Positions 9,125-31,786 are shown, numbered from the stretch's first letter. The stretch is 32,000 nt of DNA from Candidatus Methanoperedens sp. (GCA_041494705.1 JBGQBI010000004.1:90001-122000); one strand, 5' to 3'. The notes: generated from the sequence alone by a model not told the origin. Translations and numbers: made by a program.

Positions 9125-9201
9125 TTTTCCTTCTTTGATTCTCAAAGATATTAGGTCTTTCCTAAGTAAAGCATAAGTAATACTAAATCAAAAGAGCATC
9201 G
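9125..9201. promoter_or_regulatory. Short divergent promoter spacer between radical SAM paralog 1 (-) and the GT-C gene (+)
   Basis: 77 bp AT-rich spacer (…aagtaaagcataagtaatactaaatc…) between divergent start codons. The promoter assignment rests on position and AT-richness only. Confidence 0.3.
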
Positions 9202-18735: not shown

Positions 18736-19711
18736 AAAACTCTACTGTCTTTTTAATTCCTTCTTCAAGTCCTATCTTCGGTTCCCAGCCAAGCGTCTTT
18801 TTTATTTTTCCATAATCTGCAGTATAACTACCTATTTCGATCTTTTTCCTCTCATCAGGAAAAGGAACAAGCTCAAAACTTCCTTTCTGTGCAATATTTA
18901 TTATCAACCTTACAAGATCTTTTAAATTTGAAGGCTCGCCGCCCAGATTAAATACTTCCCCCTCAGAACGTTTGCTATCGCCAGCAAGCAATAATGCCCG
19001 GACAACGTCATCCACATAATGGAAATCCCTTATCTGAAGCCCATCGCCAAATATCTTTATCACTTCATTATCCATTGCCTGGCGTATAAACCAGTTCAGG
19101 AACCCCTGCCTGCTGTGTTTCATCAGATGCCTTGGTCCATAGGTATTTGTAAGCCGCAGCGACGTTGCCCTTATCCCATACGTCCTATAGTATAATAGAT
19201 GATACTGTTCAGCAGCATGTTTCGATATGCCGTTTGTATCTACAGGGGTTATAGGGTGCTTTTCATCAACAGGAGTATATACGATTTTTCCGTATTGTGA
19301 ACGTGTGCCTGAAAAGATTATCTTCGCCCCGCAGTTGTATTTTCTGCAAGCTTCAAGAAGCGTCAATGTTCCAAGACCATTAATTTCAAGGTCTTCAAAT
19401 GGATTTTCCATGCTTTCCACATGGCTTAATTGCGCCGCTAAATTGAAGATATAGTCCTTATCTTTTACCACCTGGTTTACAGCGGCATTATCTCTCATAT
19501 CTGCAAAGTTGAGTTTGATTTTATCTTCTATCCCTTTGATGTTGAAAAGATTCCCGCCTCCCTTAGGGTAAAGTGCGTCTATAATCGTAACATCCGAGCC
19601 AAGTTTTATCAGTTCATGGGCAAGATTGCTTCCGATAAACCCAAGTCCGCCTGTTATGAGAACTTTTTTTCCCCTGTAAGTATGATCTAAATTAATGGCT
19701 TCCACCACCAT
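18707..19711 (-). CDS. Extended SDR NDP-sugar epimerase/dehydratase/reductase homolog with an atypical active site (Asn in place of the catalytic Tyr)
   Basis: 334 aa. The cofactor motif is ...[15 protein letters not shown].... The S/T region is ...FSGTRSQYG.... Where YxxxK is expected, the sequence reads ...[13 protein letters not shown]..., which aligns residue-for-residue to ...PSSPYSASKAGGD... of the adjacent RmlB. It overlaps rfbB by 25 nt. Confidence 0.85.
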
Positions 19712-20640
19712 TCATTCTCTACATACCATCTGATTGTTTCACCAAGTGCTGCCTTAAAATCATGTTTCGGCTTCCAGCCGAGTTTTTTTATCTTTGTTAT
19801 ATCTAACGAATAACGCCTGTCATGACCTTTGCGGTCGGGAACAAATTCTATCAAGCTTTCAGGCTTACGCAGTTCCTTCAAAATCATAGTGGTTATATCA
19901 ATATTCGTTATCTCGTTTCCCGAGCCGATATTGTATATCTCTCCTTCTTTGCCTTTATGCATCACTAAATCTATTGCATCGCAATTATCCAGCACATACA
20001 GCCAGTCCCTTACATTTTTACCGTCGCCGTAAAGGGGTAGCTTTTTATTTCTCAGGGCATTTGTTATAAAAAACGGGATTAGTTTCTCAGGGTACTGATA
20101 AGGGCCAAAATTGTTGGAGCTTCTTGTGATTATAACGGGAAGCTGATGCGTAATGAAATAAGAATGCACGAGCATGTCGCCTCCAGCCTTGCTTGCAGAA
20201 TAAGGGCTTGAAGGTTCGAGACGGTCAGTTTCCTTGAATGAACCAGCATCTATGCTGCCGTATACTTCATCCGTAGATATCTGGACATACTTTTCAACAT
20301 CATATTTCCTTGCAGCTTCCAGGAGTCTGTAAGTACCGAGTACATCTGTGGTAACAAAATCCCCAGCATCGATTATCGACCTATCCACATGGGTTTCTGC
20401 TGCAAAATTAACTATAATGTCAACATCTTTGCAAACATTTTCAACCGTCTCTTTATTGCATATATCCCCTTTTATAAAGCTGTATTTTTTATTTTTTTCC
20501 ACATCTTTTAAATTTTGAAGATTCCCCGCATAGGTGAGCTTGTCCAGATTTATGACTTCATACTCCGGGTGTTTTTTCAGGATGCTGAGTATGAAATTAC
20601 TTCCGATAAAACCTGCTCCGCCTGTTATTAATAATTTCAT
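19687..20640 (-). CDS. rfbB: dTDP-glucose 4,6-dehydratase
   Basis: 317 aa. Diagnostic strings are MKLLITGGAGFIGSNF, ...NLDKLTYAGNLQNL..., ...FAAETHVDRSI..., ...ISTDEVYG..., ...SPYSASKAGGDMLV... and ...GDGKNVRDWLYV.... This is the classic RmlB/RfbB signature set. Confidence 0.93.
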   Translation of the reverse strand: MKLLITGGAGFIGSNFILSILKKHPEYEVINLDKLTYAGNLQNLKDVEKNKKYSFIKGDICNKETVENVCKDVDIIVNFAAETHVDRSIIDAGDFVTTDVLGTYRLLEAARKYDVEKYVQISTDEVYGSIDAGSFKETDRLEPSSPYSASKAGGDMLVHSYFITHQLPVIITRSSNNFGPYQYPEKLIPFFITNALRNKKLPLYGDGKNVRDWLYVLDNCDAIDLVMHKGKEGEIYNIGSGNEITNIDITTMILKELRKPESLIEFVPDRKGHDRRYSLDITKIKKLGWKPKHDFKAALGETIRWYVENEWWWKPLI

Positions 20641-20646
20641 GTTTAC

Positions 20647-21723
20647 CTACAATTGTATCTCTGAATTTTCGCCAATAATAAACCTATATCCTTTTGGAAG
20701 GGAATTTTTAGAAACAATACTGGTATACCTTCCGATTAAACTATCCACGATTTTTTCATCAAATTCAATCCGCGTGTCACCGATTATGATTGAAGATTCT
20801 ACCTCTCCTCCAATAATAGTTGTATTGTCTCCGATGGAAGTATAGGGACCTATATAGCCCGGACCAATTTTGCAGTTCTTACCTATTATTACCGGTCCCC
20901 TTACTACAGTCCCATTTTTAATGATGCTATCCTGCCCCAGTTCAATATTACCTATCAGTTTAGCTCCCTCTTCTATTGCTCCTTCTATTTTATGGTTCAT
21001 ATCGCTCAAAATAAGATGGTTGGCATGAAGGATCGCCTCTGCAGTTCCTGTATCATCCCACCAATCTGTTACGATATGGGAAATAACTTTATATTTTTTT
21101 GATAAAATTATGCTGCGAATGGCGTCGGTTATTTCATACTCCCCGCGCCAGGATGGTTTGAGCGTCTCTATGACCTTGAAGATATGCGGGGTAAACATAT
21201 ATACCCCAATCAGTGCCAGATCGCTTTTCGGGACTTTTGGCTTCTCCTCCACATCGGTTACTACCCCTTTATCATCCAGTTGCGCTATGCCGTATTTCTG
21301 CGGGTCAGGAACACGGGAAAGAAGTATTCCAGCCTCAGCGCCCGAGTTTTTAAATTCATTCACGAAATTGACTATTCCGCTTTTTAATATATTATCTCCG
21401 AGATAAACCACAAAAGGTTCCTCGCCCATAAAATCCCTGGCGCAAGAAACAGCATGAGCAATGCCACGCGGTGCATCCTGTTCAATGTATGTGATCCTTG
21501 CATCCCACCGTGAGCCATCGCCTACCGTATTCTTTACTATATTTATGCGCTCCTCGGTATATCCCACGATAATACCGATATCTGTTATGCCCGCCTCAAT
21601 AAGGTCTTCAATGACATAAAATAGCACAGGCTTATTCGCTATAGGGATAAGCTGCTTTGGTCCGGTATGGGTGAGTGGTCGCAGGCGTGTGCCCAGACCG
21701 CCTGCAAGAATTAAGCCTTTCAT
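20647..21723 (-). CDS. rfbA: Glucose-1-phosphate thymidylyltransferase, long form (nucleotidyltransferase domain plus C-terminal left-handed beta-helix)
   Basis: The track ORF starts at a TTG at 21741. I prefer the ATG at 21723 (MKGLILAGGLGTRLRPLTHTGPKQLIPI...), which is preceded by a GAGGA SD 4 nt upstream. A C-terminal hexapeptide-repeat region (...IGKNCKIGPGYIGPYTSIGDNTTIIGGEVESSII...) matches archaeal long-form RmlA-type enzymes. Sugar and nucleotide specificity are inferred from the adjacent rfbB. Confidence 0.88.
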   Translation of the reverse strand: MKGLILAGGLGTRLRPLTHTGPKQLIPIANKPVLFYVIEDLIEAGITDIGIIVGYTEERINIVKNTVGDGSRWDARITYIEQDAPRGIAHAVSCARDFMGEEPFVVYLGDNILKSGIVNFVNEFKNSGAEAGILLSRVPDPQKYGIAQLDDKGVVTDVEEKPKVPKSDLALIGVYMFTPHIFKVIETLKPSWRGEYEITDAIRSIILSKKYKVISHIVTDWWDDTGTAEAILHANHLILSDMNHKIEGAIEEGAKLIGNIELGQDSIIKNGTVVRGPVIIGKNCKIGPGYIGPYTSIGDNTTIIGGEVESSIIIGDTRIEFDEKIVDSLIGRYTSIVSKNSLPKGYRFIIGENSEIQL

Positions 21724-21761
21724 GAAATCCTCATTTTTCAATCATCAATATCGCTTCCATA

Positions 21762-21866
21762 CTAAATAGATTTGGAAAAATCCAGCCCTTCATCAATATA
21801 TTTATATTCCGGTCTGATGCCACTGCTATCTAAAGAGTAAACATAATCTTCATGTCTGTTGGTCAT
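21762..21866 (-). CDS. Hypothetical 34-aa small ORF (MTNRHEDYVYSLDSSGIRPEYKYIDEGLDFSKSI)
   Basis: Hand-translated; it falls below the ORF-track length cutoff. Its ATG begins 1 nt after the TAA stop of the upstream GT4 gene (TAAAATG), and it fills most of an otherwise unexplained 126 bp gap in a tightly packed operon. I recognise no homology, so it may be non-coding. Confidence 0.2.
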   Translation of the reverse strand: MTNRHEDYVYSLDSSGIRPEYKYIDEGLDFSKSI

Positions 21867-21867
21867 T

Positions 21868-23115
21868 TTAGACATATTGGTATTGATTTAACTTCTCCTT
21901 ATTTCTACGTATTACCTCTTCATACACCTTTATCGTACCCTCTACCATACTCTCTACACTGAACTTCTCCACAATTTTTTTTCGTGCAGCCTTGCCGAGA
22001 CGCTGTGCAAGTTCCTTATCTGTGAGTACTTTTCGAACAGCCTCTGCCAGCTTTTTAATATCGCCTGTAGGGACAAGGAGACCATCAACACCGTCTTCAA
22101 TTACCGTGGGAACGCTGCCAATATTTGATACCACAACTGGTTTTTCACATGCCATCGCTTCAAGGATGGTGAGGTCGTAACCGTTCTGGCGGATGGTGGG
22201 ATTCACGAAAAGGTCGCAGGCGTTGAAGTAATCAGGAAGCGATTCGAAAGAGAGCATGCCAGTAAAGATGACATTGTTTTCAAGGTTTAGTTTTTTGACC
22301 CGTTTTCTTAATTCGGGAGCATAGCTTCCATCACCGACGATCATTAATTTTGTGTCAGGAAAGATTTTCAAAATTTCAGGAAAAGCATAAATGATATTTT
22401 GTATCCCTTTGTCTTTTTCAAGACGTGCGATAGAAAGGAGAAGATTTTCCCCCGGAGCTATGTTATGTTTCTGACGAATTATTTCATTTTTACGTGGTGA
22501 AAAGGGTGTAGGATCGATACCGTTAAATACTTTAAATATTTTGGCTTCATTGATAAAAAATATTTTTTTAATTATCACAGCCTGCTCATTGCTTGTGGAT
22601 ATAACCGCATCAGACAGACGTATGAGCGGCAATCCATATATAAAATATTGATAAATATGATCTAAAATAAACCCTATCGATTTAATATAATGCACAGGAG
22701 CTTTGATAGACATAAGACGCAATCTTGTTTTGATCTCATCGTAAGTAGTACCATGCATGGATACGATCGAAGGCAAAGAACATTTTTTATTTAGTCCTTT
22801 TTTCAAAAAATAATATCCGCCTGCACTCTGGCTGTGGACGATGTCAAAAGGTTTCAATGAATGCAGCTCCATGAACTTGTCAACACTTTTTTCCCACCAC
22901 CCGCCTCTAAAATAACTCCCGGTGATCGTCGTTGGCAAATAATGAATTTTCACGCCATTTACTTCTTCATAAATTTTGCCTTTCGGATGCTTTGTAGTGA
23001 TAACTACCACTGTATGACCTTTTTCTGCTATTTTTTCTGAAAGCATTAGAATATGGTCTTGCATCCCTCCCTTACAATGAGCTGGCATCACGCGGGTGAA
23101 CATTGCAATATTCAT
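21868..23115 (-). CDS. Family 4 (GT-B) glycosyltransferase
   Basis: 415 aa. The N-terminus is ...GGMQDHILMLSEKIAEKGH.... The C-terminal signature is ...LFVNPTIRQNGYDLTILEAMACEKPVVVSNIGS.... Its start overlaps the upstream methyltransferase stop by 4 nt. Confidence 0.85.
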   Translation of the reverse strand: MNIAMFTRVMPAHCKGGMQDHILMLSEKIAEKGHTVVVITTKHPKGKIYEEVNGVKIHYLPTTITGSYFRGGWWEKSVDKFMELHSLKPFDIVHSQSAGGYYFLKKGLNKKCSLPSIVSMHGTTYDEIKTRLRLMSIKAPVHYIKSIGFILDHIYQYFIYGLPLIRLSDAVISTSNEQAVIIKKIFFINEAKIFKVFNGIDPTPFSPRKNEIIRQKHNIAPGENLLLSIARLEKDKGIQNIIYAFPEILKIFPDTKLMIVGDGSYAPELRKRVKKLNLENNVIFTGMLSFESLPDYFNACDLFVNPTIRQNGYDLTILEAMACEKPVVVSNIGSVPTVIEDGVDGLLVPTGDIKKLAEAVRKVLTDKELAQRLGKAARKKIVEKFSVESMVEGTIKVYEEVIRRNKEKLNQYQYV

Positions 23116-23855
23116 TTTTTTACACCTTTTATGACTATTTCGATTCCGAATGTTTTTGAGATTTTGTTGTTTGTTAATTTATCCAGCGGCATAATGAACA
23201 TCAAATCGATCAATTTCCCAAAAGGGACTAATAATCGCGATAATCTACAGATCGAATGCGCGGGATTGAAACCAGAATGTTCAATTCCATAAAGATTATT
23301 TAATTTAAATGTTTGTATCAATTCAAGTTTTTTAAATGATTTTTCATAACCATAAACATATCTTTTTCCAACTATTTTCTTGTACAGTGTATGTGGAAAA
23401 CAATACCAATTAGGCACTGCAACTATTACCTGGCCTTTTTTTCTCGTTAAACGTACCATTTCGTTTACAATTGCATTATAATTGATAAAGTGTTCAATCA
23501 CACCGTCGTTATAAACTACATCGAACGCATCATTTTTAAAAGGCATTCTAAAGGCATCTCCCTGAACAAGATATAGATTTTCTATACCCCTGCATTGCAT
23601 TCCTTTTCTGGTAAGTTTCAAGGCATTTCGAGAGATATCCATTCCAATTATCATTGAATTTTTATATTCTCTTGCAAGAGCTATACAATACCTACCGGTG
23701 CCTGACCCGGCCTCAATAATTTTTTTATCTTTGGATGTAATCCATTGGGATATACAGGGAAATGCTTTTTTTGCGAACGAATCGAAAGCAGTTTCTTTGA
23801 CAGCATTTTTTTCCATCAATCCCCATTGTGCATCCCAAATGTCATCTACTTTCAT
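23112..23855 (-). CDS. Class I SAM-dependent methyltransferase
   Basis: 247 aa. Motif I is ...KIIEAGSGTGRYCIALA.... Later motifs are ...FDVVYNDGVIEHF... and ...KKGQVIVAVPN.... Confidence 0.85.
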   Translation of the reverse strand: MKVDDIWDAQWGLMEKNAVKETAFDSFAKKAFPCISQWITSKDKKIIEAGSGTGRYCIALAREYKNSMIIGMDISRNALKLTRKGMQCRGIENLYLVQGDAFRMPFKNDAFDVVYNDGVIEHFINYNAIVNEMVRLTRKKGQVIVAVPNWYCFPHTLYKKIVGKRYVYGYEKSFKKLELIQTFKLNNLYGIEHSGFNPAHSICRLSRLLVPFGKLIDLMFIMPLDKLTNNKISKTFGIEIVIKGVKK

Positions 23856-23861
23856 ATTCCT

Positions 23862-24403
23862 CTAATCAATGTTTTTTATTATTTTGGCAGGCGTTCCGGC
23901 TGCTACGGAATATTCCGGGATGTCCATATTCACCAGGCTATTAGCACCAATAACAGAACCTGTTTTGATTGTTACACCCTTCAAAATCGTACAACCTTTT
24001 CCAATCCATACATTACTTTCTATCACAACAGATGCAGTTTTTAGTTCCTGTTCCCGTATCAACTTTCCTTTTTTGAAATTATGGTCATGGTCTCTAATAG
24101 AGGTATATTCTCCTATCAAGACATCATCACCAATATTAATAGAATTGTAAGAAATAACAATTACCCCATATGCCAGATGCACATTGTTTCCAATGTTTAT
24201 CCGACCTTTATTTCCTCCTACAAAAGAGTTCCTGCCAAACCAGACATTGTCACCACAATAAATTTTCGTGTCCCCCCCCATCCATTATAACCTTCAAAAA
24301 ATACATTTTTTCCAAGGCGTGTAAAATGTCTTGAATAATAAATGTTCATTAGATTATTACGCATATAATTATATATATTTTTAATATACAATTTAAGCCC
24401 CAT
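23862..24403 (-). pseudogene. Hexapeptide-repeat (LbH, WcaF/WbbJ/LacA-like) acetyltransferase interrupted by a frameshift in a G8 homopolymer
   Basis: Two ORFs in different frames overlap at the tract. The 5' part (24218-24403) is MGLKLYIKNIYNYMRNNLMNIYYSRHFTRLGKNVFFEGYNGWGG.... The 3' part (23862-24281) is ...DTKIYCGDNVWFGRNSF..INIGNNVHL..INIGDDVLIGEYTSIRDHDHNF..NVWIGKGCTILKGVTIKTGSVIGANSLV..AGTPAKII. Adding 1 G (or removing 2) gives one continuous protein of about 180 aa with a normal family N-terminus. The 5' ATG abuts the stop of the upstream radical SAM gene (TAAATG). Confidence 0.75.
24272..24279 (-). repeat. G8 homopolymer (C8 on the plus strand) at the acetyltransferase frameshift site
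   Basis: Read directly from the sequence: ...cgtg tCCCCCCCCa tcc.... It is the longest G/C run I noticed in a locally very AT-rich region. Confidence 0.95.
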
Positions 24404-25912
24404 TTATTTTAATAAATTGATAATCCTGTCTTTAATAAATTTTTCTTCTTCCTGGTACTTAAAAAAATTAAATTTCCATCTCAATTTAGGTGAAATAGAA
24501 TAAATCATACCTAAATTCGATTCAGTCAATTTTTTTATGGTTTTTAAATCATAAACCAGATACTTCGAATTTTCAGATAAGAAACGTATGAACTCGGGAT
24601 CGTCAACCCAGGGAAGATCATCAAGACTATTATATCCGGTATTTTTATTGGCATTAGCCCATTCACGAAGGGATTCAGGCTCATATAATCCTAATTTTTT
24701 ACATTGTTCATACAATTCTCCTCCCGGATAGGGCCTGAATATAAAATTATCATAATGTCTTGCTGTAGGACATATCTTGTTTATTTGCCTCATAATTATA
24801 ATATTTGTTTTCATTTCTTCTATAGTTTTCCCCGGTAGTGCTATCATCCATGAATATACAGGAATGATACCTGACTTGGCGCATACTTTTGCAGAATTTA
24901 ATAAGTCTTCTGTAGTTATATCTTTTTTAAGGCTTTTCAAAACAGCGTTAGAACCGGATTCTGCGCCCATAGTTGCAAATTCAAATCCTACGCTCTTTAA
25001 TTCTTTAGCGAAATCCACAGTCACATAGTTTTCTTTAAAATAATTAGCTCGGATGTTAGTTCCCCATTTAACATCGATTTTTCTCTCCTTCATTTTTTTA
25101 ATTATTTCTTCCGCTCTTTTTTTATTTACAAAGAAATTTTCATCCAGAGGCCGGATCATATCCAGCTTATATTTATCAACAATAAATTCAAACTCATCAA
25201 GGAACCTGTCCGCATCCTGAGCCCTCCAACCGGATTTGGTAACTTTATTTATACAGAAAGTACACCTGTACGGGCACCCGCGGGAAGACAACATGACCAG
25301 TTTTCTAATCTTTTTAGTATCTGAGAATATTATAGGAACAGGTCTTTCCAAATAAAATCTTAAATCTAAAAGATCATGATTGAGAAAGGGAAGTTTATTT
25401 ATGTCTAAGAAATCCCTTGGTTGAGTTACAAATCCATCATAAGCAATTCCTTTAATCTCTTCAAACTTGGAATTTTTCTTTTCAATTTCATTGATTAACT
25501 CTAAAGCTGATGCCTCTCCTTCTCCATAAACCACAAAATCAACCAGAGGGTCATTTGATGTTTGCGCAGGGAATAAAGATGGATGAACCCCACCCCAAAT
25601 GATCGGAATATCCGGATACTTGCTCTTAATAAATTGGCTAATCGACAGCGCGTTTGAAACTTGTGCCGTCATAACCGATATGCCAACGCAGATAGCGTTA
25701 CCAAGTTCTTTTTCAAGTATTTTCAGATAGGAGTCATCGCCTACTTCATGGTACGGCACTACATCTAAAATTTTTACAGAATAACCTTTTTCGTGTAGAT
25801 ACGTCCCAATTGCCAAAACTCCCAACGGTTCTCTAATTCTGACATCCTCTAATCTAGTATAATTTAGATTTTGTCTTGCGATTGCAGGATTAATTAGTAT
25901 TATTTCAGCCAT
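24404..25912 (-). CDS. B12-binding-domain radical SAM protein (class B-like), paralog 2
   Basis: 502 aa. The N-terminus is MAEIILINP...PLGVLAIGTYL..VKILDV..ICVGISVMT..PIIWGGVHPSLFP..DFVVYGEGEASALEL.... The cluster motif is SSRGCPYRCTFC. It is most similar to paralog 4 by eye (shared WGGxHPSL, GEGE, and KxxW-R after the cluster motif). Confidence 0.9.
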   Translation of the reverse strand: MAEIILINPAIARQNLNYTRLEDVRIREPLGVLAIGTYLHEKGYSVKILDVVPYHEVGDDSYLKILEKELGNAICVGISVMTAQVSNALSISQFIKSKYPDIPIIWGGVHPSLFPAQTSNDPLVDFVVYGEGEASALELINEIEKKNSKFEEIKGIAYDGFVTQPRDFLDINKLPFLNHDLLDLRFYLERPVPIIFSDTKKIRKLVMLSSRGCPYRCTFCINKVTKSGWRAQDADRFLDEFEFIVDKYKLDMIRPLDENFFVNKKRAEEIIKKMKERKIDVKWGTNIRANYFKENYVTVDFAKELKSVGFEFATMGAESGSNAVLKSLKKDITTEDLLNSAKVCAKSGIIPVYSWMIALPGKTIEEMKTNIIIMRQINKICPTARHYDNFIFRPYPGGELYEQCKKLGLYEPESLREWANANKNTGYNSLDDLPWVDDPEFIRFLSENSKYLVYDLKTIKKLTESNLGMIYSISPKLRWKFNFFKYQEEEKFIKDRIINLLK

Positions 25913-25916
25913 CGTT

Positions 25917-27332
25917 TCACCCTATCATTTTTCTATAGGACGACCACACAATTTCAAATAAATGCATTTTTTTTAATGCACCTATTAAACTATATTTTAA
26001 TAATTCTGATATATTTTTAGTATAAAGGGAATAATAAATAAAATAGCAGTTATAATAATAATTGATTTGGGACGTTGTTAGTTGTGGGTAATTCAATATC
26101 GATTTTTCATAATATGTATCGATTTTATTTTTTTTATCAAGCACTACCCAGTCATTCTCATAACAGAGTTCTCCCAATTTGGTTCCGCGGAATGGATAGA
26201 AAACGGAGACTTGTATAGCATCAGGTTTTATTTGGGAATTGAGAACTATTGTTTGTTTGATATCCGCTGTAGTTTCGAATGGCAATCCAACCATATTAAA
26301 AGAATACGTTTCTAAATTATACTTCTTCGCAAGCTTAAAGGCCTCAGTTATTTGGTTGTTCGTATTATGCCTATTTAAAACTTTTGAGCGTATTTCTTCA
26401 CTTCCGGATTCTATTCCTATCTGCAATCTTTTGCAACCTGCATCAGCGATTTTAGATATTAAATCTTCTTGGCAAGTTTCAGGGCGGGCATTAGCATAAA
26501 AAGGCAAACCAATTTCTTTTTTATATTTTTCGGCAAATTCGGTTATCCATTTTTTGTTTAAAAGCATGGTATCGTCATAAAACCCGATGGAGTTGAACTT
26601 GTAAATTTTCTGAAGTTCCTTAATTTCCTCTATCACCCTGTCAACCTTACGAAATCTGACATATCTATCCTTCACAGGATACAAGTTTCTCACATGCTCA
26701 TTTATACAATATGTGCAGTTAAATGGACACCCCCGACTGCACATGATTCCGATCTTTTTAAGTGCGCCAGTCTCACTATTGCCGCTAAACTCATGACCCA
26801 CGATGGTCTCTTCATCAAAAATCGACCTATCCGGAAAAGGTAAACTATCAATGTCTGGAGGGGAATCAAGCTCATTTCTAATAATTTTATCGTTATCTTT
26901 AACCCAAATCCCTTTTATTTCATCAATTTTTTTGTTGTTTTCCATTAAACGTACAAGATTTGTAAGAGTTTCTTCCGCCTCGCCCCTTGCCACATAATCG
27001 ATGCTGGATAAATTGATAATCTCTTCAGGTGCAAGAGTTGCATAAGGTCCACCAACGATTATTTTTGCATTAGACTCTTGTTTAATTATCTTGCTCAGTT
27101 TCTCCACATATTTAGCCCCGAATTCAGTTATAGAAAAACCAACAAGGTCCGGATTAAATTTTTTAAGTTCTATTAAGACTTTCTCAATGTAGTTTTTTTT
27201 ATCTCTTTTCTTTAGATGAATCAAATTTACTTTATGCCCATCTTCTTTTAGAACCGCTGATAGGCTGGCAACCCCTAGCTGGAAATCCCCCTTTTCACTT
27301 TCAAAGTTTGGGTAAATAAACTGGATTCTCAT
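25917..27332 (-). CDS. B12-binding-domain radical SAM protein (class B-like), paralog 3
   Basis: 471 aa. The N-terminus is MRIQFIYPN...QLGVASLSAVL..VNLIHL..PDLVGFSITE..IIVGGPYATLAPE..DYVARGEAEETL.... The cluster motif is CSRGCPFNCTYC. Its start overlaps the upstream GT4 stop (ATGA), and its stop is 4 nt from the start of paralog 2. Confidence 0.9.
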   Translation of the reverse strand: MRIQFIYPNFESEKGDFQLGVASLSAVLKEDGHKVNLIHLKKRDKKNYIEKVLIELKKFNPDLVGFSITEFGAKYVEKLSKIIKQESNAKIIVGGPYATLAPEEIINLSSIDYVARGEAEETLTNLVRLMENNKKIDEIKGIWVKDNDKIIRNELDSPPDIDSLPFPDRSIFDEETIVGHEFSGNSETGALKKIGIMCSRGCPFNCTYCINEHVRNLYPVKDRYVRFRKVDRVIEEIKELQKIYKFNSIGFYDDTMLLNKKWITEFAEKYKKEIGLPFYANARPETCQEDLISKIADAGCKRLQIGIESGSEEIRSKVLNRHNTNNQITEAFKLAKKYNLETYSFNMVGLPFETTADIKQTIVLNSQIKPDAIQVSVFYPFRGTKLGELCYENDWVVLDKKNKIDTYYEKSILNYPQLTTSQINYYYNCYFIYYSLYTKNISELLKYSLIGALKKMHLFEIVWSSYRKMIG

Positions 27333-28468
27333 TTTATTCTAACATTGGTTTCATAGATTTTAATGTATCTATCTGCTATTGACTCCCAATCGTACTTTTT
27401 CTCTACCAGAAGCCTTCCACATCGCTCCATATTTTCTTTTATCTCATTGTTCTCAAATAACCATACTATCTTTTCGGCCAGTTCATTGATGTTTTCTGGT
27501 TTAAAAAGTATTCCATTCTCACCATTACGAATTATTTCTGGAACCCCATCCACATCTGCCGCAATGATCGCTTTTCCAGCAGCCATTGCTTCAAGATTTG
27601 TGATCCCGAAGGGTTCTATTCTTGAAGGAAGAACGAAGAACTCACAGCCATTATATAATTTAATCACTTCCTTTCGCTCAACAAAACCAAGCATTTTTAC
27701 CCGTTCTTTCAGACCGAGTTCGTTTACCAAATGGGCACATATTTGCCATTCTTCACCTGTGCCTGCAATTATCAAATCAAGTTCCAGTTTTTTATCTGCG
27801 ACTTGTTTAAAGGCTTTTATCAAAATATCAAAGCCTTTCTTATGAACAAAACGTCCGATTGAAAATATGTATGGTCTTGCTTGAAGATATTTTTCTTTTA
27901 ATTCAAACTCCTGTAAATCAATACCATTAGGTATTGGCTGAGATTTATTTTGGATTTCCGGGGCAATTTGATTTGCATCGTTTAACAGACTTCTTGAACA
28001 TCCAGTTATAAAGTCAGCGCTATTTAATAAATTTTTCAATACCCCTTTGCATATTTTTGACTCATAAGGAAACTGCTGAACATCATTTCCATGCACACTT
28101 ACTACTAACGGGTAATTTAACAACTTTTTTGACAGTAGAGTATATGACCCATTCGCATATATAAAATGAGCATTTACTATTTCTGGCTTGACTCTTTTTA
28201 GCAACCAGAGTAATTTTATGTTTGCAATTATACCTAGAGTCAAAAAACCAAATATTGATTTAATTCGTAGTGTAGGTAAAATAAAATCCAATCTATATAT
28301 CTCTATACCGTCAATTAAATCTCGCGAAGCCAGATTGCGAGGTGTTTTCGCAGCAATTACTGTTACTTTGTGACCTCTATTTGTAAATTGTTTTGCTAGA
28401 TTGTAGACCACCATTTCTACCCCACCTATATTAGGCAAGTATAGATCAGTAATTAATATTATTTTCAT
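27329..28468 (-). CDS. Family 4 (GT-B) glycosyltransferase; first gene of the long minus-strand operon
   Basis: 379 aa. The N-terminus is ...LYLPNIGGVEMVVYNLAKQFTNRGH.... The C-terminal signature is ...FFVLPSRIEPFGITNLEAMAAGKAIIAADVDG.... A GAGGAA SD (plus 28476-28481) lies about 8 nt upstream of the ATG. Confidence 0.87.
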   Translation of the reverse strand: MKIILITDLYLPNIGGVEMVVYNLAKQFTNRGHKVTVIAAKTPRNLASRDLIDGIEIYRLDFILPTLRIKSIFGFLTLGIIANIKLLWLLKRVKPEIVNAHFIYANGSYTLLSKKLLNYPLVVSVHGNDVQQFPYESKICKGVLKNLLNSADFITGCSRSLLNDANQIAPEIQNKSQPIPNGIDLQEFELKEKYLQARPYIFSIGRFVHKKGFDILIKAFKQVADKKLELDLIIAGTGEEWQICAHLVNELGLKERVKMLGFVERKEVIKLYNGCEFFVLPSRIEPFGITNLEAMAAGKAIIAADVDGVPEIIRNGENGILFKPENINELAEKIVWLFENNEIKENMERCGRLLVEKKYDWESIADRYIKIYETNVRIK

Positions 28469-28652: not shown

Positions 28653-30353
28653 GTGATATATTTGATAAATTTATTAATGTACTGGTTTTATATCAGCATA
28701 ATCATTTTAATGTCATTTATTCCTGGCTTTGCCATTGCCAGCCGTTTCAAAAATCTAAGCGTTTTAGAGAAATTAAGCGTCAGTTTTGGTTTTTCTTTTG
28801 TAATTATTGTATTACTTGTACCTTTTTTTGCATTTAAACTTAATTTTATAGCACAACTCATTTTTATTTACATAATGATTTTTTCAGTATTGTATTTACT
28901 AAAAAAGAGATCAGAGTTAAAATTTGAAATAAACTCAAGGATTATAATGTCGGTACTAATTATCGGTCTGATCTTAAACTTCTTTCTCCAGACCCTCTGG
29001 GAATACCCTGTCACTGGCGGAGATTGGATTAGCCACACATTATTTATCCCATATGATTTTAATTCAGGTAATTGGACACTACCACATGACCGTACACCTT
29101 TTTTTAATCTTCTTATTTTTTCATATCATCATTTATTGGGTACATCTCTCTTCCAATACTGGATTTCACAAATCATCAGCGTGGTTGCAAACAGCATTTT
29201 TATTCTTCCAGCCTTTTTGATAGCGAAAAATGTATTTAATGATAAGGTAGCTAAAATATCAGCTGCTTTCATGGTTATAACGCCATGGCTTGTCTGGCAG
29301 TCAATTTATACATGGCCAAAAAACTTAGCGATGTATTTCATCCTACTTATGGTGTATTTTATGTTTTTCAAAAAGGAAAACAAACCTCTAAGTTATGGAC
29401 TTTCCGGTTTATTTGGTGCATTAGCATTTTTAACGCATAACTACACTATATTCTATATTCTCACAGCATTGCTGGCCTTTATTTATATCAAAAAAATTTA
29501 CCAACACCCTTTAATTATTCTTCAGGAATTGTTTAAAGAAAAATTTATTTATTTTTTTATTGTGATAGTAGTAGCAATAGTGCCGTATATTGTGTGGATG
29601 TATGCCTCTTATGGAGAAATAGTTAAAAGTCGTCTTCTTTATTATCCCTTTTCAGTTAACGGTTACGTGCAAGCGTCTTACAGTGATCCTCAGGAAATAT
29701 TCAATACTTTTTTCAAAACACCGATAAGTTCAATAATAGATATTCGGATTTCAAATGCGATTGTTACATTATTGCCTGTTGTGCTCCCGATTAACCCCAT
29801 TGCAACACATTTCCCAACATATTATCCAGCTTTATATTATATGCAAGATTATCCGGGTGGGCTTTCTTTTTTGATGTACATACTAGTAGTTATTTGGTTC
29901 TCAAGATACCTGTTTAGAAAAACAAATACGAATGCAGTTTTGGTAATTCTTGTTATAGTACCTTTTCTGGTAACCCTCTTCATAGCCGGATGGAAAGACT
30001 GGGGATTACTCACTTATGCACTGGGTCCCACAATTCCAATTTTAATAATGCTTGGAACTAATGAATTGTATGGATTTAAGACTTCATGGATTAGAACTGC
30101 ATATGCGTATTTAATGTTTATAGTATGCCTGATGGAAGGTTTGATTTTCGGAGTGCTTATCAATGATCTTTATTTGGCAACCGGTGGAATAAAGGATGTG
30201 ATAGATGTTGGCGCTCGCATTCCCGGCTTTCAAATATCTTCTTTCATTTCGGCTCACTTTTTATTGAAGGGAATTGAAGATTTTTCAACGAATGCGGCGA
30301 TATCCATTTTGATAATTATTGTTACAATATATTATCTGTCAAAAAAAAGCTAA
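28653..30353 (+). CDS. Polytopic membrane protein, GT-C-like (candidate lipid-linked-sugar glycosyltransferase or glycan polymerase)
   Basis: 566 aa with at least 12 predicted TM helices. The loop ...YPVTGGDWISH..., then ...RTPFFNLL...LGTS... and ...LAFLTHNYT... parallel the order of the DE / PPxxxL / FGxS / LTKxxA elements in the GT-C protein at 9202-11016. The family call is pattern-based only. The start (GTG 28653 versus ATG at codon 9) is uncertain. Confidence 0.55.
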   Translation: MIYLINLLMYWFYISIIILMSFIPGFAIASRFKNLSVLEKLSVSFGFSFVIIVLLVPFFAFKLNFIAQLIFIYIMIFSVLYLLKKRSELKFEINSRIIMSVLIIGLILNFFLQTLWEYPVTGGDWISHTLFIPYDFNSGNWTLPHDRTPFFNLLIFSYHHLLGTSLFQYWISQIISVVANSIFILPAFLIAKNVFNDKVAKISAAFMVITPWLVWQSIYTWPKNLAMYFILLMVYFMFFKKENKPLSYGLSGLFGALAFLTHNYTIFYILTALLAFIYIKKIYQHPLIILQELFKEKFIYFFIVIVVAIVPYIVWMYASYGEIVKSRLLYYPFSVNGYVQASYSDPQEIFNTFFKTPISSIIDIRISNAIVTLLPVVLPINPIATHFPTYYPALYYMQDYPGGLSFLMYILVVIWFSRYLFRKTNTNAVLVILVIVPFLVTLFIAGWKDWGLLTYALGPTIPILIMLGTNELYGFKTSWIRTAYAYLMFIVCLMEGLIFGVLINDLYLATGGIKDVIDVGARIPGFQISSFISAHFLLKGIEDFSTNAAISILIIIVTIYYLSKKS

Positions 30354-31786
30354 CCCTTTATCCAGAAGTCCATCAATTTTGATTCCAGCATAAATTTAAA
30401 AAAAAGATTTTTCACTCTGAATCTTGCTATGGGCTTATAAATATCAGAGAGGATTCCTTTCGAAGAATAAACCATCCCTCTACTTCCATGCAGGAAAAGT
30501 GAGGAATAAAATAAATACTTCAACATTTTCATCCTCTGGTCGGATATCCATGGTATATTACCATAGTTGGACCCACTCCATCCTTCCAGGGTGGATGGAA
30601 CTCTATATCCCTCATTTATCGCCTTACCGAAAATTTCTGTACCAGGATATGGTACGTAGTTGCAAAGCGGTGATGAGATTGCATTTGGTGAACCATCTAT
30701 TAATTCAAAAACTAATTCTACTGTTTTTTTCAGGTCTTCTTCAGTTTCTGTGGGAAAACCTGCCATGAAATTATACTGGCAGACAATATTGAATTTTTTG
30801 AGTTTTTTCGCCACCTCTCTGACCTGGGAAATTGTAATATTTTTTCTTACTAGATTCAAAATTCTCTCAGATCCAGATTCAATTCCAAAATGAAGTTTTC
30901 TGCATCCACTCTTTTCTATCAAACTTAGAAATTCATCATTCATCTTAATAGCTATTTTTACATTTATTCCCTGACTTTCCCATGTAAGATCCCAACCTTC
31001 TTTGATGATACCTTTTGCGATCTCTTCCACTCTTTTTAAATCTATGAAAAAATCATCGTCGACTATATATAAATTCTTAACACCATATTTTTCCACCCCT
31101 CTTTTTATCATCGCTAAAGTTTTTTCAGCAGATAAGGCCCGCCACTTTCTCTTGTTATATGCAGGATTGTAGCAATAGGCACAGTTATTCGGGCATCCTC
31201 TTGAAGTTTGTATGTTTAGTGTCGGTCTACCTTCAAATAATGGTAAATACTTTTTTACCTCAACCAAATGATAAGGTAGGTCTGGAAGTGTATTCAAATC
31301 AACAAAAGGACGTGGATTGTTGTTCTTGATTACACCGTTTGACTTAAACCAAACTCCTTCTATTCCATCTAATGCGATACCTTTATCCAGATGTTTTACA
31401 AGTTCATAAAAAGTGATCTCACCTTCGCCTGCAACCACAATATCAACGAATTCGTTTTCGAGAGTTTCAGCAGGCAAAAGACTTGGGTGAATACCTCCCC
31501 AAACAACCGGTACTTTCGATTCTTTTTTAACTATTTTGGATGCCTCTAAGCCATGTTTAATCTGCACTCCCGTCATTGACGTCACACCGACACAAATTAC
31601 ATCCTTCTTCAACTCTTCTTTCAGTGTGTTTTTCCATTCCAAATCAGTTCTTTGGTCAATTATTCTTACTTTGTATTCTTTTTCAACTAACGTTGATACA
31701 CATAACAAAGCAAGCGGTAGAGATGGTGATGTTCTCACTTCGTCCCAATCTCCTACTATCGGCTGAATTAGAATAACATTTCTCAT
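30350..31786 (-). CDS. B12-binding-domain radical SAM protein (class B-like), paralog 4
   Basis: 478 aa. The N-terminus is MRNVILIQP...PSLPLALLCVSTL..VRIIDQ..ICVGVTSMT..PVVWGGIHPSLLP..DIVVAGEGEITFYEL.... The cluster motif is TSRGCPNNCAYC. A GAGGA SD lies 5 nt upstream of the ATG. Its TAG stop overlaps the TAA stop of the convergent membrane protein gene. Confidence 0.9.
   Translation of the reverse strand: MRNVILIQPIVGDWDEVRTSPSLPLALLCVSTLVEKEYKVRIIDQRTDLEWKNTLKEELKKDVICVGVTSMTGVQIKHGLEASKIVKKESKVPVVWGGIHPSLLPAETLENEFVDIVVAGEGEITFYELVKHLDKGIALDGIEGVWFKSNGVIKNNNPRPFVDLNTLPDLPYHLVEVKKYLPLFEGRPTLNIQTSRGCPNNCAYCYNPAYNKRKWRALSAEKTLAMIKRGVEKYGVKNLYIVDDDFFIDLKRVEEIAKGIIKEGWDLTWESQGINVKIAIKMNDEFLSLIEKSGCRKLHFGIESGSERILNLVRKNITISQVREVAKKLKKFNIVCQYNFMAGFPTETEEDLKKTVELVFELIDGSPNAISSPLCNYVPYPGTEIFGKAINEGYRVPSTLEGWSGSNYGNIPWISDQRMKMLKYLFYSSLFLHGSRGMVYSSKGILSDIYKPIARFRVKNLFFKFMLESKLMDFWIKG

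What the first reader, a model, noticed from the sequence alone, without database searches (positions are those of the whole stretch)
24404..27332. Tandem radical SAM pair translationally coupled inside a 13-gene sugar-pathway operon
Paralogs 3 and 2 sit head-to-tail with a 4-nt gap. Paralog 3 overlaps the stop of the leading GT4 gene (ATGA). The stop of paralog 2 abuts the acetyltransferase ATG (TAAATG).

The same-strand array then continues with overlaps or gaps of 6 nt or less, apart from one 126 bp spacer that holds a small ORF. The order is methyltransferase, GT4, RmlA, RmlB, SDR, aminotransferase, methyltransferase, GT4.

This degree of coupling argues that the two radical SAM enzymes are stoichiometric members of the same pathway that makes and transfers a modified 6-deoxy-amino sugar, not passengers. 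Two consecutive divergent paralogs suggest two sequential or regiospecific radical steps.
Basis: partly seen in the sequence, partly recalled or inferred. Interest (0 to 1): 0.7.

Follow-up and report, generated by a model that had tools for sequence, protein, structure and literature searches.

The report
Radical SAM pair in archaeal glycan cassette

Summary
The layout is real. On the minus strand, GT4 (27329-28468) overlaps rSAM3 (25917-27332) by ATGA. rSAM2 (24404-25912) follows after 4 nt, and TAAATG joins it to a hexapeptide acetyltransferase. That acetyltransferase is frameshifted at a G8 run, the small ORF has no support, and this spacing is ordinary for operons.

The window is a Candidatus Methanoperedens chromosome. 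The array lies in a variable glycosylation island beside AglB that holds four B12-domain radical SAM genes.

Related loci show a conserved unit: GT4a-rSAM3-rSAM2-MT1, with the acetyltransferase optional. It recurs in three lineages with three different downstream blocks, one lacking RmlA and DegT. A fourth lineage keeps GT4a-rSAM3 and RmlA-RmlB-SDR-DegT but swaps rSAM2 for unrelated radical SAM genes. So the pair is not tied to the 6-deoxy-amino-sugar genes.

The rSAM3 family is large: 6053 clusters at E<=1e-30. It includes fusions to GT4, GT2 and class I methyltransferase domains.

Both proteins have the class B fold (TsrM, AprD4, MgmA, OxsB, TokK, CysS) but reach no curated family cut-off.

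Best reading: radical tailoring, probably C-methylation, of a sugar already on the lipid-linked glycan. The chemistry is inferred, not shown. This is a new variant of a known kind, of moderate interest.

The parts
27329..28468 (-). GT4a: GT4-family glycosyltransferase and first gene of the cassette. Its stop overlaps the rSAM3 start (ATGA).
   Evidence: Pfam Glycos_transf_1 156 bits and Glyco_transf_4 82 bits. Junction checked. Orthologs of 68-83% identity sit directly upstream of rSAM3 in L083, L085 and L092.
25917..27332 (-). rSAM3: class B (B12-domain) radical SAM enzyme, 471 aa, with cluster motif C202-x3-C206-x2-C209.
   Evidence: Pfam B12-binding 67 bits and Radical_SAM 93 bits. The cysteines are invariant in 30 homologs. 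AlphaFold pLDDT is 91, and the nearest folds are TsrM, AprD4, MgmA, CysS, OxsB and TokK. No NCBIfam cut-off is reached. dN/dS is about 0.10.
24404..25912 (-). rSAM2: a second class B radical SAM enzyme, 502 aa, with motif C213-x3-C217-x2-C220. It is only 27% identical to rSAM3.
   Evidence: Pfam B12-binding 62 bits and Radical_SAM 63.5 bits. Invariant cysteines. pLDDT 89, with fold hits to TsrM, OxsB, AprD4, MgmA, CysS and TokK. Orthologs of 82-89% identity follow rSAM3 in L083/84/88 and L092/93. dN/dS is 0.05-0.09.
23862..24403 (-). Hexapeptide-repeat (WbbJ/WcaF-like) sugar O-acetyltransferase, frameshifted in this genome. It reads as two ORFs, 24218-24403 and 23862-24281.
   Evidence: Sequence read. 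Pfam Hexapep hits the C-terminal ORF only, and NCBIfam's best hit is WbbJ. Intact orthologs read ...NGWGGSTKI... straight across the break.
24272..24279 (-). G8 homopolymer (C8 on the + strand) at the frameshift site. It is the only G/C run of 7 or more in the 32-kb window.
   Evidence: Alignment with L088, L089, L090 and L091 shows differing states at this site.
23112..23855 (-). MT1: class I SAM methyltransferase and last gene of the conserved cassette. Its stop overlaps the GT4b start (ATGA).
   Evidence: Pfam Methyltransf_31/11/25. It is 91% identical in L083 and 74% in L092, always directly after rSAM2 or the acetyltransferase remnant.
21868..23115 (-). GT4b: second GT4 glycosyltransferase. 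Homology with L083 and L092 ends at its start, so it marks a cassette boundary.
   Evidence: Pfam. blastn breakpoints lie at about 23107-23109.
21724..21867 (-). 144-nt spacer containing an AT-rich TATA-like stretch and a T5 run. It may be an internal transcription boundary. The 37-aa ORF (21762-21875) is unsupported.
   Evidence: The ORF has no Pfam hit and was not called in L001/L002. Whether it acts as a promoter or terminator was not determined.
20647..21723 (-). RmlA (long form): glucose-1-phosphate thymidylyltransferase.
   Evidence: NCBIfam TIGR01208, 443.5 bits against a 320 cut-off.
19687..20640 (-). RmlB: dTDP-glucose 4,6-dehydratase.
   Evidence: NCBIfam TIGR01181, 476.9 bits against a 365 cut-off.
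18707..19711 (-). SDR1: NAD-dependent epimerase/dehydratase-family enzyme of unassigned specificity.
   Evidence: Pfam Epimerase 184 bits. No NCBIfam cut-off is reached.
17626..18735 (-). DegT/DnrJ/EryC1-family sugar aminotransferase.
   Evidence: Pfam PF01041, 427 bits.
16927..17622 (-). MT2: class I methyltransferase. In L085 a B12-radical SAM gene occupies this slot.
   Evidence: Pfam. Comparison with L085.
15762..16925 (-). GT4c: third GT4 glycosyltransferase and the end of the tightly packed array.
   Evidence: Pfam. A 125-nt gap follows.
30350..31786 (-). rSAM1: third B12-radical SAM gene. It converges on, and overlaps by 4 nt, a PMT_2 (GT-C) membrane protein at 28653-30353 (+).
   Evidence: It is 93% conserved in L083.
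7622..9145 (-). rSAM0: fourth B12-radical SAM gene of the island.
   Evidence: Pfam.
2735..5293 (-). AglB: the archaeal oligosaccharyltransferase that anchors the island.
   Evidence: Pfam STT3, AglB_core-like and AglB_L1. A source names it 'oligosaccharyl transferase (archaeosortase A-associated)'.
12290..13747 (+). Wzx/MATE-like polysaccharide flippase. It forms the conserved right flank of the variable region.
   Evidence: Pfam Polysacc_synt and MatE. It is 73% identical at the DNA level in L092.

Best explanation
The finding lies in a strain-variable protein-glycosylation island of a Candidatus Methanoperedens (ANME-2d) chromosome. The island is flanked by the oligosaccharyltransferase AglB and a Wzx-like flippase.

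The two radical SAM genes are ancient paralogs from two large uncharacterised subfamilies of class B radical SAM enzymes (cobalamin-binding domain plus [4Fe-4S]/SAM barrel). They belong to a portable four-gene cassette, GT4a-rSAM3-rSAM2-MT1, with an optional O-acetyltransferase.

Proposed mechanism, with shown and inferred steps marked:
- GT4a adds one sugar to the growing lipid-linked glycan on the cytoplasmic face (family shown, step inferred).
- rSAM3 and then rSAM2 abstract unactivated C-H hydrogens of that residue with a 5'-deoxyadenosyl radical. Most likely they transfer methyl from methylcobalamin, giving C-methyl branches (chemistry inferred).
- MT1 adds a heteroatom methyl group (inferred). 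The acetyltransferase adds O-acetyl where it is intact, which is not the case in this genome.
- The finished glycan is flipped and transferred by AglB (inferred from proximity).

The dTDP-sugar block (RmlA-RmlB-SDR-DegT-MT2-GT4c) is a separate, exchangeable module that supplies and transfers a different residue.
For: **Organism and locus**
- The L10e and GatE protein clusters are named Methanoperedens, and the exact proteins lie on a 2.07-Mb contig.
- AglB, the flippase, five GT4 genes, one GT2 and two PMT_2 genes are in the window.

**Class B architecture**
- Pfam domains score above the gathering thresholds.
- The CX3CX2C motif is invariant.
- Confident models match TsrM, AprD4, MgmA, CysS, OxsB and TokK.

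**Cassette behaviour**
- GT4a-rSAM3-rSAM2-MT1 is found in the window, in L083/84/88 and in L092/93. Gaps are 0 or -4 between GT4a and rSAM3 and 4 nt between the rSAM3 stop and the rSAM2 reading frame.
- The downstream genes are unrelated in each case, and the blastn breakpoints fall at gene boundaries.
- L085 keeps GT4a-rSAM3 and RmlA-DegT but has other radical SAM genes in the rSAM2 slot and in the MT2 slot.

**Selection**
- dN/dS is 0.05-0.21 for all cassette genes.

**Link to glycosyltransfer**
- All 8 looked-up contexts of rSAM3 homologs (44-100% identity) have a GT4-family gene immediately upstream on the same strand.
- Fusion proteins join this radical SAM family to GT4 (P0028), GT2 (P0479, P0457) and class I methyltransferases (P0035, P0476, P0510, P0463).
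- The rSAM2 family has a methyltransferase fusion (P0255) and an MT-rSAM-GT4 arrangement in L094.
- Of 80 distant loci, 27 carry GT4, 28 carry a further radical SAM gene and 23 carry an SDR within 10 kb, by an insensitive blastp test.

**Precedent**
- The sugar-directed class B methylases GenK, GenD1 and MoeK5 methylate carbon centres in gentamicin and moenomycin tailoring (PMC9204698; PMC4340712). From my own knowledge, their substrates are already-glycosylated intermediates, not NDP-sugars.
Against: - No biochemical or glycan-structure data exist for this organism.
- Neither protein reaches any curated NCBIfam cut-off. The best hits are HpnJ and BchE at about 109-134 bits against cut-offs of 480-580.
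- Several of the nearest relatives by sequence or fold are not methylases. AprD4 is a diol dehydratase that binds no cobalamin. HpnJ and OxsB are ring-contraction enzymes. BchE is a cyclase.
- AprD4 gives the best TM-score for rSAM3 (0.72/0.75) and the best PDB sequence hit (2.6e-17).
- Outside Methanoperedens the upstream GT4 genes are only about 25% identical to GT4a. Part of the adjacency may simply reflect how common GT4 genes are in glycan loci.
- Fusions taken from metagenome assemblies can be artefacts.
- The link to AglB rests on proximity (about 19 kb) only.
Confidence: 0.6

Rival explanations
1. One reading: both radical SAM enzymes act on nucleotide-sugar intermediates of the RmlA-RmlB-SDR-DegT pathway, as stoichiometric steps in making a modified dTDP-6-deoxy-amino sugar that the flanking GT4 enzymes transfer.
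For: - The genes are on the same strand and tightly packed with bona fide RmlA and RmlB and a DegT aminotransferase.
- DegT-family genes lie within 10 kb of rSAM3 homologs in 5 of 8 looked-up lineages.
Against: - The rSAM3-rSAM2-MT1 cassette persists in L092/L093 with no RmlA or DegT in the operon. It persists in L083 with a different nucleotidyltransferase plus an AsnB-like gene and no DegT.
- L085 has RmlA-RmlB-SDR-DegT without rSAM2.
- A 144-nt spacer separates the two blocks.
- The fusion partners are glycosyltransferases and methyltransferases, never nucleotide-sugar enzymes.
- From my own knowledge, C-methylation of NDP-sugars is normally done by TylC3/EvaC-type class I enzymes on 4-keto intermediates.
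Confidence: 0.12
2. The enzymes tailor the glycan by radical chemistry that does not transfer methyl. Candidates are an AprD4-like 1,2-diol dehydration giving a deoxy sugar, an HpnJ/OxsB-like ring contraction giving a carbocyclic or contracted sugar, or an epimerisation or oxidation.
For: - AprD4, which acts on the sugar of paromamine, is rSAM3's best PDB hit by sequence (2.6e-17) and by TM-score.
- HpnJ is the top NCBIfam hit for rSAM3 and rSAM1.
- L086 and L097 place a GT4, the rSAM3 homolog and a PIG-L deacetylase together. This is the same enzyme triad as HpnI/HpnJ/HpnK of hopanoid cyclitol-ether synthesis (PMC9204698 for HpnJ).
Against: - All these similarities are far below the family cut-offs (AprD4 model 71 bits against 500, HpnJ 134 against 578).
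- Methylases (TsrM, MgmA, CysS, TokK) match equally well.
- In L085 a radical SAM gene sits in the operon slot that a class I methyltransferase occupies here, which hints at equivalent roles.
- The window has no reductase partner resembling AprD3 and no PIG-L next to the pair.
Confidence: 0.22
3. The radical SAM enzymes do not act on sugars at all. They would modify the lipid carrier or the acceptor protein (as the methanogen enzymes Mmp10 and MgmA methylate protein side chains) and merely share an operon with glycan genes.
For: - MgmA, a protein glutamine C-methylase, is among the nearest structures.
- Class B radical SAM enzymes that modify lipids exist, such as HpnP and HpnR (PMC9204698).
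Against: - No candidate peptide or protein substrate gene sits beside the pair.
- The family is recurrently fused to GT2, GT4 and methyltransferase domains and embedded between glycosyltransferases across bacteria and archaea.
Confidence: 0.05

Closest known systems
GenK, GenD1 and MoeK5: cobalamin-dependent radical SAM C-methyltransferases that tailor sugars of gentamicin and moenomycin
   Same: - Same two-domain class B architecture.
- Encoded among glycosyltransferases and class I methyltransferases.
- They methylate carbon centres in gentamicin and moenomycin tailoring (PMC9204698, PMC4340712). From my own knowledge, they act on a sugar already attached to an aglycone or lipid, which is the mode proposed here.
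   Different: - Those are antibiotic pathways of actinomycetes. This is a cell-surface or N-glycan island of an archaeon.
- Methyl transfer is not shown for the window proteins.
HpnJ (TIGR03471), with HpnI and HpnK of hopanoid cyclitol-ether synthesis
   Same: - Top NCBIfam hit for rSAM3 and rSAM1.
- A class B radical SAM enzyme proposed to remodel a lipid-linked amino sugar (PMC9204698). From my own knowledge, a glycosyltransferase (HpnI) installs that sugar and a PIG-L deacetylase (HpnK) acts before HpnJ.
- The GT + rSAM + PIG-L triad recurs in L086 and L097.
   Different: - Scores of 134-148 bits against a 578-bit cut-off mean these are not HpnJ orthologs.
- There is no hopanoid pathway in archaea (own knowledge), and the window has no PIG-L next to the pair.
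AprD4 (PDB 6FD2): radical SAM 1,2-diol dehydratase of apramycin biosynthesis
   Same: - Best PDB match for rSAM3 by sequence (2.6e-17) and TM-score (0.72/0.75).
- Its substrate is a glycosidically linked sugar.
   Different: - Only 16% identity.
- The NCBIfam AprD4 model gives 71 bits against a 500-bit cut-off.
- AprD4 does not bind cobalamin (PMC12931638). From my own knowledge, it works with the reductase AprD3, and no such partner is evident here.
Structurally characterised class B enzymes TsrM, TokK, CysS, OxsB and MgmA/QCMT
   Same: Shared Rossmann-like cobalamin domain plus radical SAM barrel (Foldseek probability 1.0, TM 0.5-0.72).
   Different: - Identity is 15-21%.
- The substrates differ (tryptophan, carbapenem, pantetheinyl intermediates, nucleoside, protein glutamine).
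- The C-terminal substrate-binding domains are not shared.
Archaeal Agl N-glycosylation gene clusters (Haloferax, Methanococcus)
   Same: An AglB-linked island holding GT2 and GT4 genes, a flippase, nucleotide-sugar enzymes and methyltransferases.
   Different: No radical SAM enzyme turned up in the archaeal N-glycosylation literature searched. This island carries four.

Membership tests
Class B (cobalamin-dependent) radical SAM enzymes | Radical SAM core with a CX3CX2C [4Fe-4S] motif | tested here: met
   PF04055 scores 93 and 63.5 bits against a 29.5 cut-off. C202/C206/C209 and C213/C217/C220 are invariant across 30 and 32 homologs.
Class B (cobalamin-dependent) radical SAM enzymes | N-terminal Rossmann-like cobalamin-binding domain | tested here: met
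   PF02310 scores 67.4 and 61.9 bits against a 32.1 cut-off. The predicted folds superpose on TsrM, OxsB, TokK, CysS and MgmA.
Class B (cobalamin-dependent) radical SAM enzymes | Actual binding of, and dependence on, cobalamin | not testable with these tools
   AprD4 has the same domain but binds no cobalamin (PMC12931638), so the domain alone does not prove it.
Class B radical SAM C-methyltransferases (GenK/GenD1/MoeK5/Fom3 type) | Methyl transfer from methylcobalamin to an unactivated carbon (5'-dA and SAH co-products) | not testable with these tools
   This needs an enzyme assay. The only indirect hints are fusions with and neighbourhood to class I methyltransferases, and a slot swap with MT2 in L085.
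HpnJ (TIGR03471) / BchE (TIGR02026) | Score at or above the curated equivalog cut-off | tested here: not met
   For HpnJ, rSAM3 scores 133.6 and rSAM2 108.6 bits against 577.6. For BchE they score 122.4 and 129.1 against 481. The source label 'anaerobic Mg-protoporphyrin IX monomethyl ester cyclase' is therefore an over-annotation.
AprD4 family diol dehydratase (NF033070) | Score at or above the curated cut-off | tested here: not met
   71.3 bits (rSAM3) and 36.7 bits (rSAM2) against 500.
dTDP-6-deoxyhexose pathway (RmlA, RmlB) | Equivalog-level matches for the thymidylyltransferase and the 4,6-dehydratase | tested here: met
   TIGR01208 scores 443.5 against 320.25, and TIGR01181 scores 476.9 against 365.1. 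No RmlC or RmlD equivalent was found, and DegT is present.
dTDP-6-deoxyhexose pathway as the home of the radical SAM pair | Co-inheritance of the radical SAM pair with RmlA/RmlB/DegT across related loci | tested here: not met
   The cassette occurs without RmlA or DegT in L092/L093, and with a different sugar block in L083. RmlA-DegT occurs without rSAM2 in L085.
Archaeal AglB-dependent N-glycosylation cluster | AglB oligosaccharyltransferase, flippase and glycosyltransferases in one island | tested here: met
   STT3, AglB_core and AglB_L1 at 2735-5293, Polysacc_synt at 12290-13747, and GT2 and GT4 genes.
Archaeal AglB-dependent N-glycosylation cluster | The operon's product is the glycan that AglB transfers | not testable with these tools
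   This is inferred from about 19 kb of proximity only. PMT_2 (GT-C) genes in the island leave room for other acceptors.
Homopolymer contingency (phase-variable) locus | A coding homopolymer tract whose length varies and switches the frame | tested here: inconclusive
   A unique G8 breaks the frame, and the site differs among lineages. However, two assemblies of this genotype, which may come from the same strain, both carry G8, and read-level heterogeneity could not be examined.

The most novel reading that the evidence does not exclude
The GT-linked B12-domain radical SAM families seen here have about 6000 clusters (50% identity) at E<=1e-30. They occur across DPANN, Asgard and methanotrophic archaea and many bacterial phyla, and are sometimes fused to GT2, GT4 or methyltransferase domains. 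They could be an unrecognised class of cell-surface glycan tailoring enzymes. Such enzymes would install C-methyl branches, or deoxy or carbocyclic modifications, on lipid-linked glycans, adding radical chemistry to N-glycan and surface-polysaccharide diversity. In Methanoperedens they appear to be swapped between strains like serotype cassettes.
Probability: 0.35. Interest if true: 0.7.

Novelty: new variant of a known kind. Interest (0 to 1): 0.45.

Why it matters
Class B radical SAM enzymes are known as tailoring enzymes of antibiotics, cofactors, lipids and peptides. The searches made here found no report of one in archaeal protein glycosylation.

If the cassette model holds, archaeal and many bacterial surface glycans contain radical-installed modifications that standard glycan annotation would miss. 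The large, unnamed enzyme family would gain a substrate class.

The model also changes the experiment worth doing. The assay should look at lipid-linked or protein-linked glycans, not the dTDP-sugar pool.

For Methanoperedens, a poorly understood methane-oxidising archaeon, it points to strain-level surface variation. That variation could matter for interactions with viruses, Borgs or partner organisms.

Tried and rejected
- **Genome-contig scan.** It gave family-wide context statistics but not close synteny. Exact-protein look-ups supplied the close synteny instead.
- **NCBIfam.** No cut-off was reached for any radical SAM protein, so no function could be transferred.
- **PDB sequence and fold searches.** These confirm the class but do not separate methylase from non-methylase.
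- **Literature searches.** They found nothing on radical SAM enzymes in archaeal N-glycosylation or in polysaccharide loci.
- **Promoter scanning.** I did not use the sigma-70 promoter scan, because the host is archaeal. A simple TATA-box and oligo-T scan of the spacers was inconclusive.
- **Rfam, tRNA and tandem-repeat scans.** Nothing was found.
- **Recent tandem duplication.** Rejected, because the two proteins are 27% identical and rSAM2 is closer to rSAM1.
- **Sequencing error as the cause of the acetyltransferase frameshift.** Made less likely, because two other assemblies share the G8. They may derive from the same strain, so it is not excluded.
- **Orthologous upstream GT4 in distant loci.** Rejected, because those GTs are only about 25% identical to GT4a.

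Full report
**1. Observation**

ORF listing and direct reading confirm a minus-strand array:
- GT4a, 27329-28468
- rSAM3, 25917-27332
- rSAM2, 24404-25912
- a hexapeptide acetyltransferase
- MT1, 23112-23855
- GT4b, 21868-23115
- a spacer
- RmlA, 20647-21723
- RmlB, 19687-20640
- SDR1, 18707-19711
- DegT, 17626-18735
- MT2, 16927-17622
- GT4c, 15762-16925

GT4a/rSAM3 overlap as ATGA. A 4-nt gap separates rSAM3 and rSAM2, preceded by a GGTGA Shine-Dalgarno-like motif. TAAATG joins rSAM2 to the next ATG. Every other junction is an overlap or a gap of 6 nt or less, except one spacer.

Pfam and NCBIfam confirm each family assignment. RmlA-long and RmlB exceed their equivalog cut-offs.

Three details differ from the finding:
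- The acetyltransferase is split by a frameshift at a G8 run (24272-24279) into 61-aa and 139-aa ORFs.
- The spacer is 144 nt to the ATG that gene callers use.
- The 37-aa ORF in the spacer has no support.

Tight spacing of this kind is normal for operons. It argues for co-transcription, not for stoichiometry or shared substrate.

**2. Where this is**

The window also encodes ribosomal protein L10e, GatE and AglB. The L10e and GatE proteins fall in 90%-identity clusters named Candidatus Methanoperedens. The exact proteins lie on a 2.07-Mb metagenomic contig. This is therefore a chromosomal glycosylation island of an ANME-2d archaeon.

The island contains AglB, a Wzx-like flippase, one GT2 gene, five GT4 genes, two PMT_2 (GT-C) membrane proteins, three or more class I methyltransferases, and four B12-domain radical SAM genes: 7622-9145, 24404-25912, 25917-27332 and 30350-31786. 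The four radical SAM proteins are only 25-31% identical to each other. rSAM2 is closer to rSAM1 than to its neighbour rSAM3. The tandem pair is not a recent duplication.

**3. What the proteins are**

Both have a B12-binding domain and a radical SAM domain above the Pfam gathering scores. Both have an invariant CX3CX2C motif.

AlphaFold models are confident (pLDDT 91 and 89). They superpose on the class B enzymes TsrM, MgmA/QCMT, CysS, OxsB and TokK, and on AprD4. The sequence-level PDB hits agree:
- rSAM3: AprD4 at 2.6e-17 and MgmA at 2.6e-13.
- rSAM2: TokK at 1.4e-9, then TsrM, MgmA and CysS.

PDB 9CCB is identified as QCMT in PMC12931638.

No NCBIfam model reaches its cut-off. The best hits are HpnJ and BchE at about 109-134 bits against cut-offs of 480-580. 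The 'Mg-protoporphyrin cyclase' label carried by some sources is therefore an over-annotation. Class membership is established. Reaction type is not.

**4. Comparative evidence: the decisive part**

Exact-protein look-ups gave the contexts of close relatives.

| Locus | Identity to window | Arrangement |
|---|---|---|
| L083/L084/L088 | 83-93% aa | GT4a-rSAM3-rSAM2-MT1, then AsnB-like, GT4, MT, a short nucleotidyltransferase, an RmlB-like gene, SDR, MT, GT4 |
| L092/L093 | rSAM2 82% | GT4a-rSAM3-rSAM2-MT1, then GT2, unknown, GT2, MT, GT4, SDR, MT, flippase; no RmlA or DegT |
| L085 | rSAM3 80% | GT4a-rSAM3 and GT4b...RmlA-RmlB-SDR1-DegT; two unrelated B12-radical SAM genes replace rSAM2-AcT-MT1, and a further one sits where MT2 is here |
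| L089 | rSAM3 81% (partial gene) | rSAM3 followed directly by the acetyltransferase, then a different radical SAM gene |

blastn places the homology breakpoints at gene boundaries, around 23107-23109 and 24375-24404. The flanks (rSAM1/PMT_2 on one side, flippase/MT3 on the other) are conserved. This is the pattern of a hypervariable glycan locus built from exchangeable cassettes.

The radical SAM pair travels with GT4a and MT1, not with the dTDP-amino-sugar genes. All cassette genes are under purifying selection (dN/dS 0.05-0.21).

**5. Family-wide evidence**

rSAM3 has 6053 cluster representatives (50% identity) at E<=1e-30 and 28147 at E<=1e-10. They spread over DPANN, Asgard and Methanoperedens archaea and many bacterial phyla.

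In all eight looked-up lineages with rSAM3 homologs of 44-100% identity, a GT4-family gene lies immediately upstream on the same strand. Outside Methanoperedens those GTs are only about 25% identical to GT4a. The adjacency is therefore at family level, and may partly reflect how common GT4 genes are in such loci.

Fusion proteins are stronger evidence:

| Fusion partner of the B12-radical SAM | Protein(s) |
|---|---|
| GT4 | P0028 |
| GT2 | P0479 |
| two GT2 domains | P0457 |
| class I methyltransferase | P0035, P0476, P0510 |
| methyltransferase plus kinase | P0463 |
| class I methyltransferase (rSAM2 family) | P0255 |

None is fused to a nucleotide-sugar enzyme. A 56% homolog of rSAM2 sits in an MT-rSAM-GT4-GT4 run (L094). 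Among 80 distant loci, MT-rSAM-GT4 triplets recur.

**6. Mechanism proposed**

*Shown:* the domain families, the cassette behaviour, the selection and the fusions.

*Inferred:*
- GT4a adds a residue to the lipid-linked glycan.
- rSAM3 and rSAM2 use 5'-deoxyadenosyl radical chemistry on that residue.
- MT1, and the acetyltransferase where intact, finish the decoration.
- The glycan is flipped and transferred by AglB.

C-methylation is my preferred chemistry for three reasons. The known sugar-directed class B enzymes (GenK, GenD1, MoeK5) are C-methylases that, from my own knowledge, act on already-glycosylated intermediates (PMC9204698; PMC4340712). Radical SAM genes and class I methyltransferases occupy equivalent operon slots in different strains. 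Methyltransferase fusions are frequent.

The alternative is non-methylating chemistry: AprD4-like dehydration or HpnJ/OxsB-like ring contraction. It remains a serious rival because AprD4 and HpnJ are the nearest named relatives of rSAM3. In addition, GT4 + rSAM + PIG-L triads resembling HpnI/J/K occur in L086 and L097.

**7. Literature**

Full-text searches found no radical SAM enzyme described in archaeal N-glycosylation and none in polysaccharide loci. A 2026 review of B12-radical SAM enzymes does not mention sugars or glycans in its main text. The kind of enzyme is known. This setting and these subfamilies are not characterised.

**8. Side observations**

*The acetyltransferase.* The G8 run that breaks its frame is the only G/C homopolymer of 7 or more in the window. 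The same G8 is present in two other assemblies, which may derive from the same strain. Relatives show several other states:
- an intact gene with G7C or G7A (L090, L091, L089)
- a double, compensated frameshift (L088)
- an internal 451-nt deletion (L083/L084)
- no gene at all (L092)

The gene is dispensable and is repeatedly inactivated. Whether the tract switches within a population could not be tested.

*The rSAM2 start codon.* In the L083/L084/L088 lineage the rSAM2 start codon is ACG instead of ATG, yet the first 29 codons remain under purifying selection (dN/dS about 0.10). This suggests non-AUG initiation, possibly helped by coupling to the rSAM3 stop 4 nt upstream.

**9. Verdict**

These are genuine pathway members, but the pathway is a portable glycan-tailoring cassette, not the 6-deoxy-amino-sugar route.

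I rate it a new variant of a known kind. Interest is moderate (0.45). It would be higher if the family proves to install C-branched or otherwise radical-made sugars in cell-surface glycans.

Noticed in passing
window 24272-24279 (within 23862-24403, minus strand): The only G/C homopolymer of 7 or more in the 32-kb window is the G8 that frameshifts the sugar O-acetyltransferase. Relatives show an intact gene (G7C or G7A), a compensated double frameshift, an internal 451-nt deletion, or no gene. This could be an indel hotspot or a contingency site, which is hardly documented in archaea.
   Followed up: partly
L083 11421-11510, L084 and L088, corresponding to window 25823-25912: In a related lineage the rSAM2 start codon is ACG instead of ATG and no in-frame canonical start lies upstream. 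Even so, the first 29 codons (the first beta-strand of the B12 domain) have dN/dS of about 0.10. This implies non-AUG initiation 4 nt after the rSAM3 stop.
   Followed up: partly
L085 11510-14445 and 20479-21416, compared with window 23116-25891 and 16927-17622: In another Methanoperedens genome two unrelated B12-radical SAM genes replace rSAM2-AcT-MT1. A further one sits after DegT, exactly where the class I methyltransferase MT2 sits in the window. L085 has at least four B12-radical SAM genes in 21 kb.
   Followed up: partly
window 7622-9145 (-) and 30350-31786 (-): Two further B12-domain radical SAM genes lie in the same island. Each is next to a PMT_2 (GT-C) membrane glycosyltransferase. 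rSAM1 and the PMT_2 gene at 28653-30353 converge and overlap by 4 nt, and this pairing is conserved in L083.
   Followed up: partly
L086 7503-11203 and L097 4179-7955: Homologs of rSAM3 (46-51% identical) sit between a GT4 gene and a convergent PIG-L deacetylase. This is the same enzyme triad as HpnI/HpnJ/HpnK, which converts a lipid-linked GlcNAc into a cyclitol ether in hopanoid producers.
   Followed up: no
proteins P0028, P0035, P0255, P0457, P0463, P0476, P0479, P0510: These are natural fusions of this radical SAM family with GT4, GT2 (once or twice), class I methyltransferase, and methyltransferase plus APH-like kinase domains.
   Followed up: yes
window 21724-21867: The 144-nt spacer between GT4b and RmlA contains an AT-rich stretch (AATATAAATATATT) and a T5 run. 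It coincides with the border between two independently exchangeable gene blocks, so it may carry an internal archaeal promoter or terminator.
   Followed up: partly
window 18707-19711: A second SDR overlaps RmlB by 25 nt and DegT by 29 nt. It resembles the dTDP-glucose 4,6-dehydratase family but scores far below the cut-off (180 against 365 bits). There is no RmlC or RmlD, and its role in the amino-sugar branch is unassigned.
   Followed up: no
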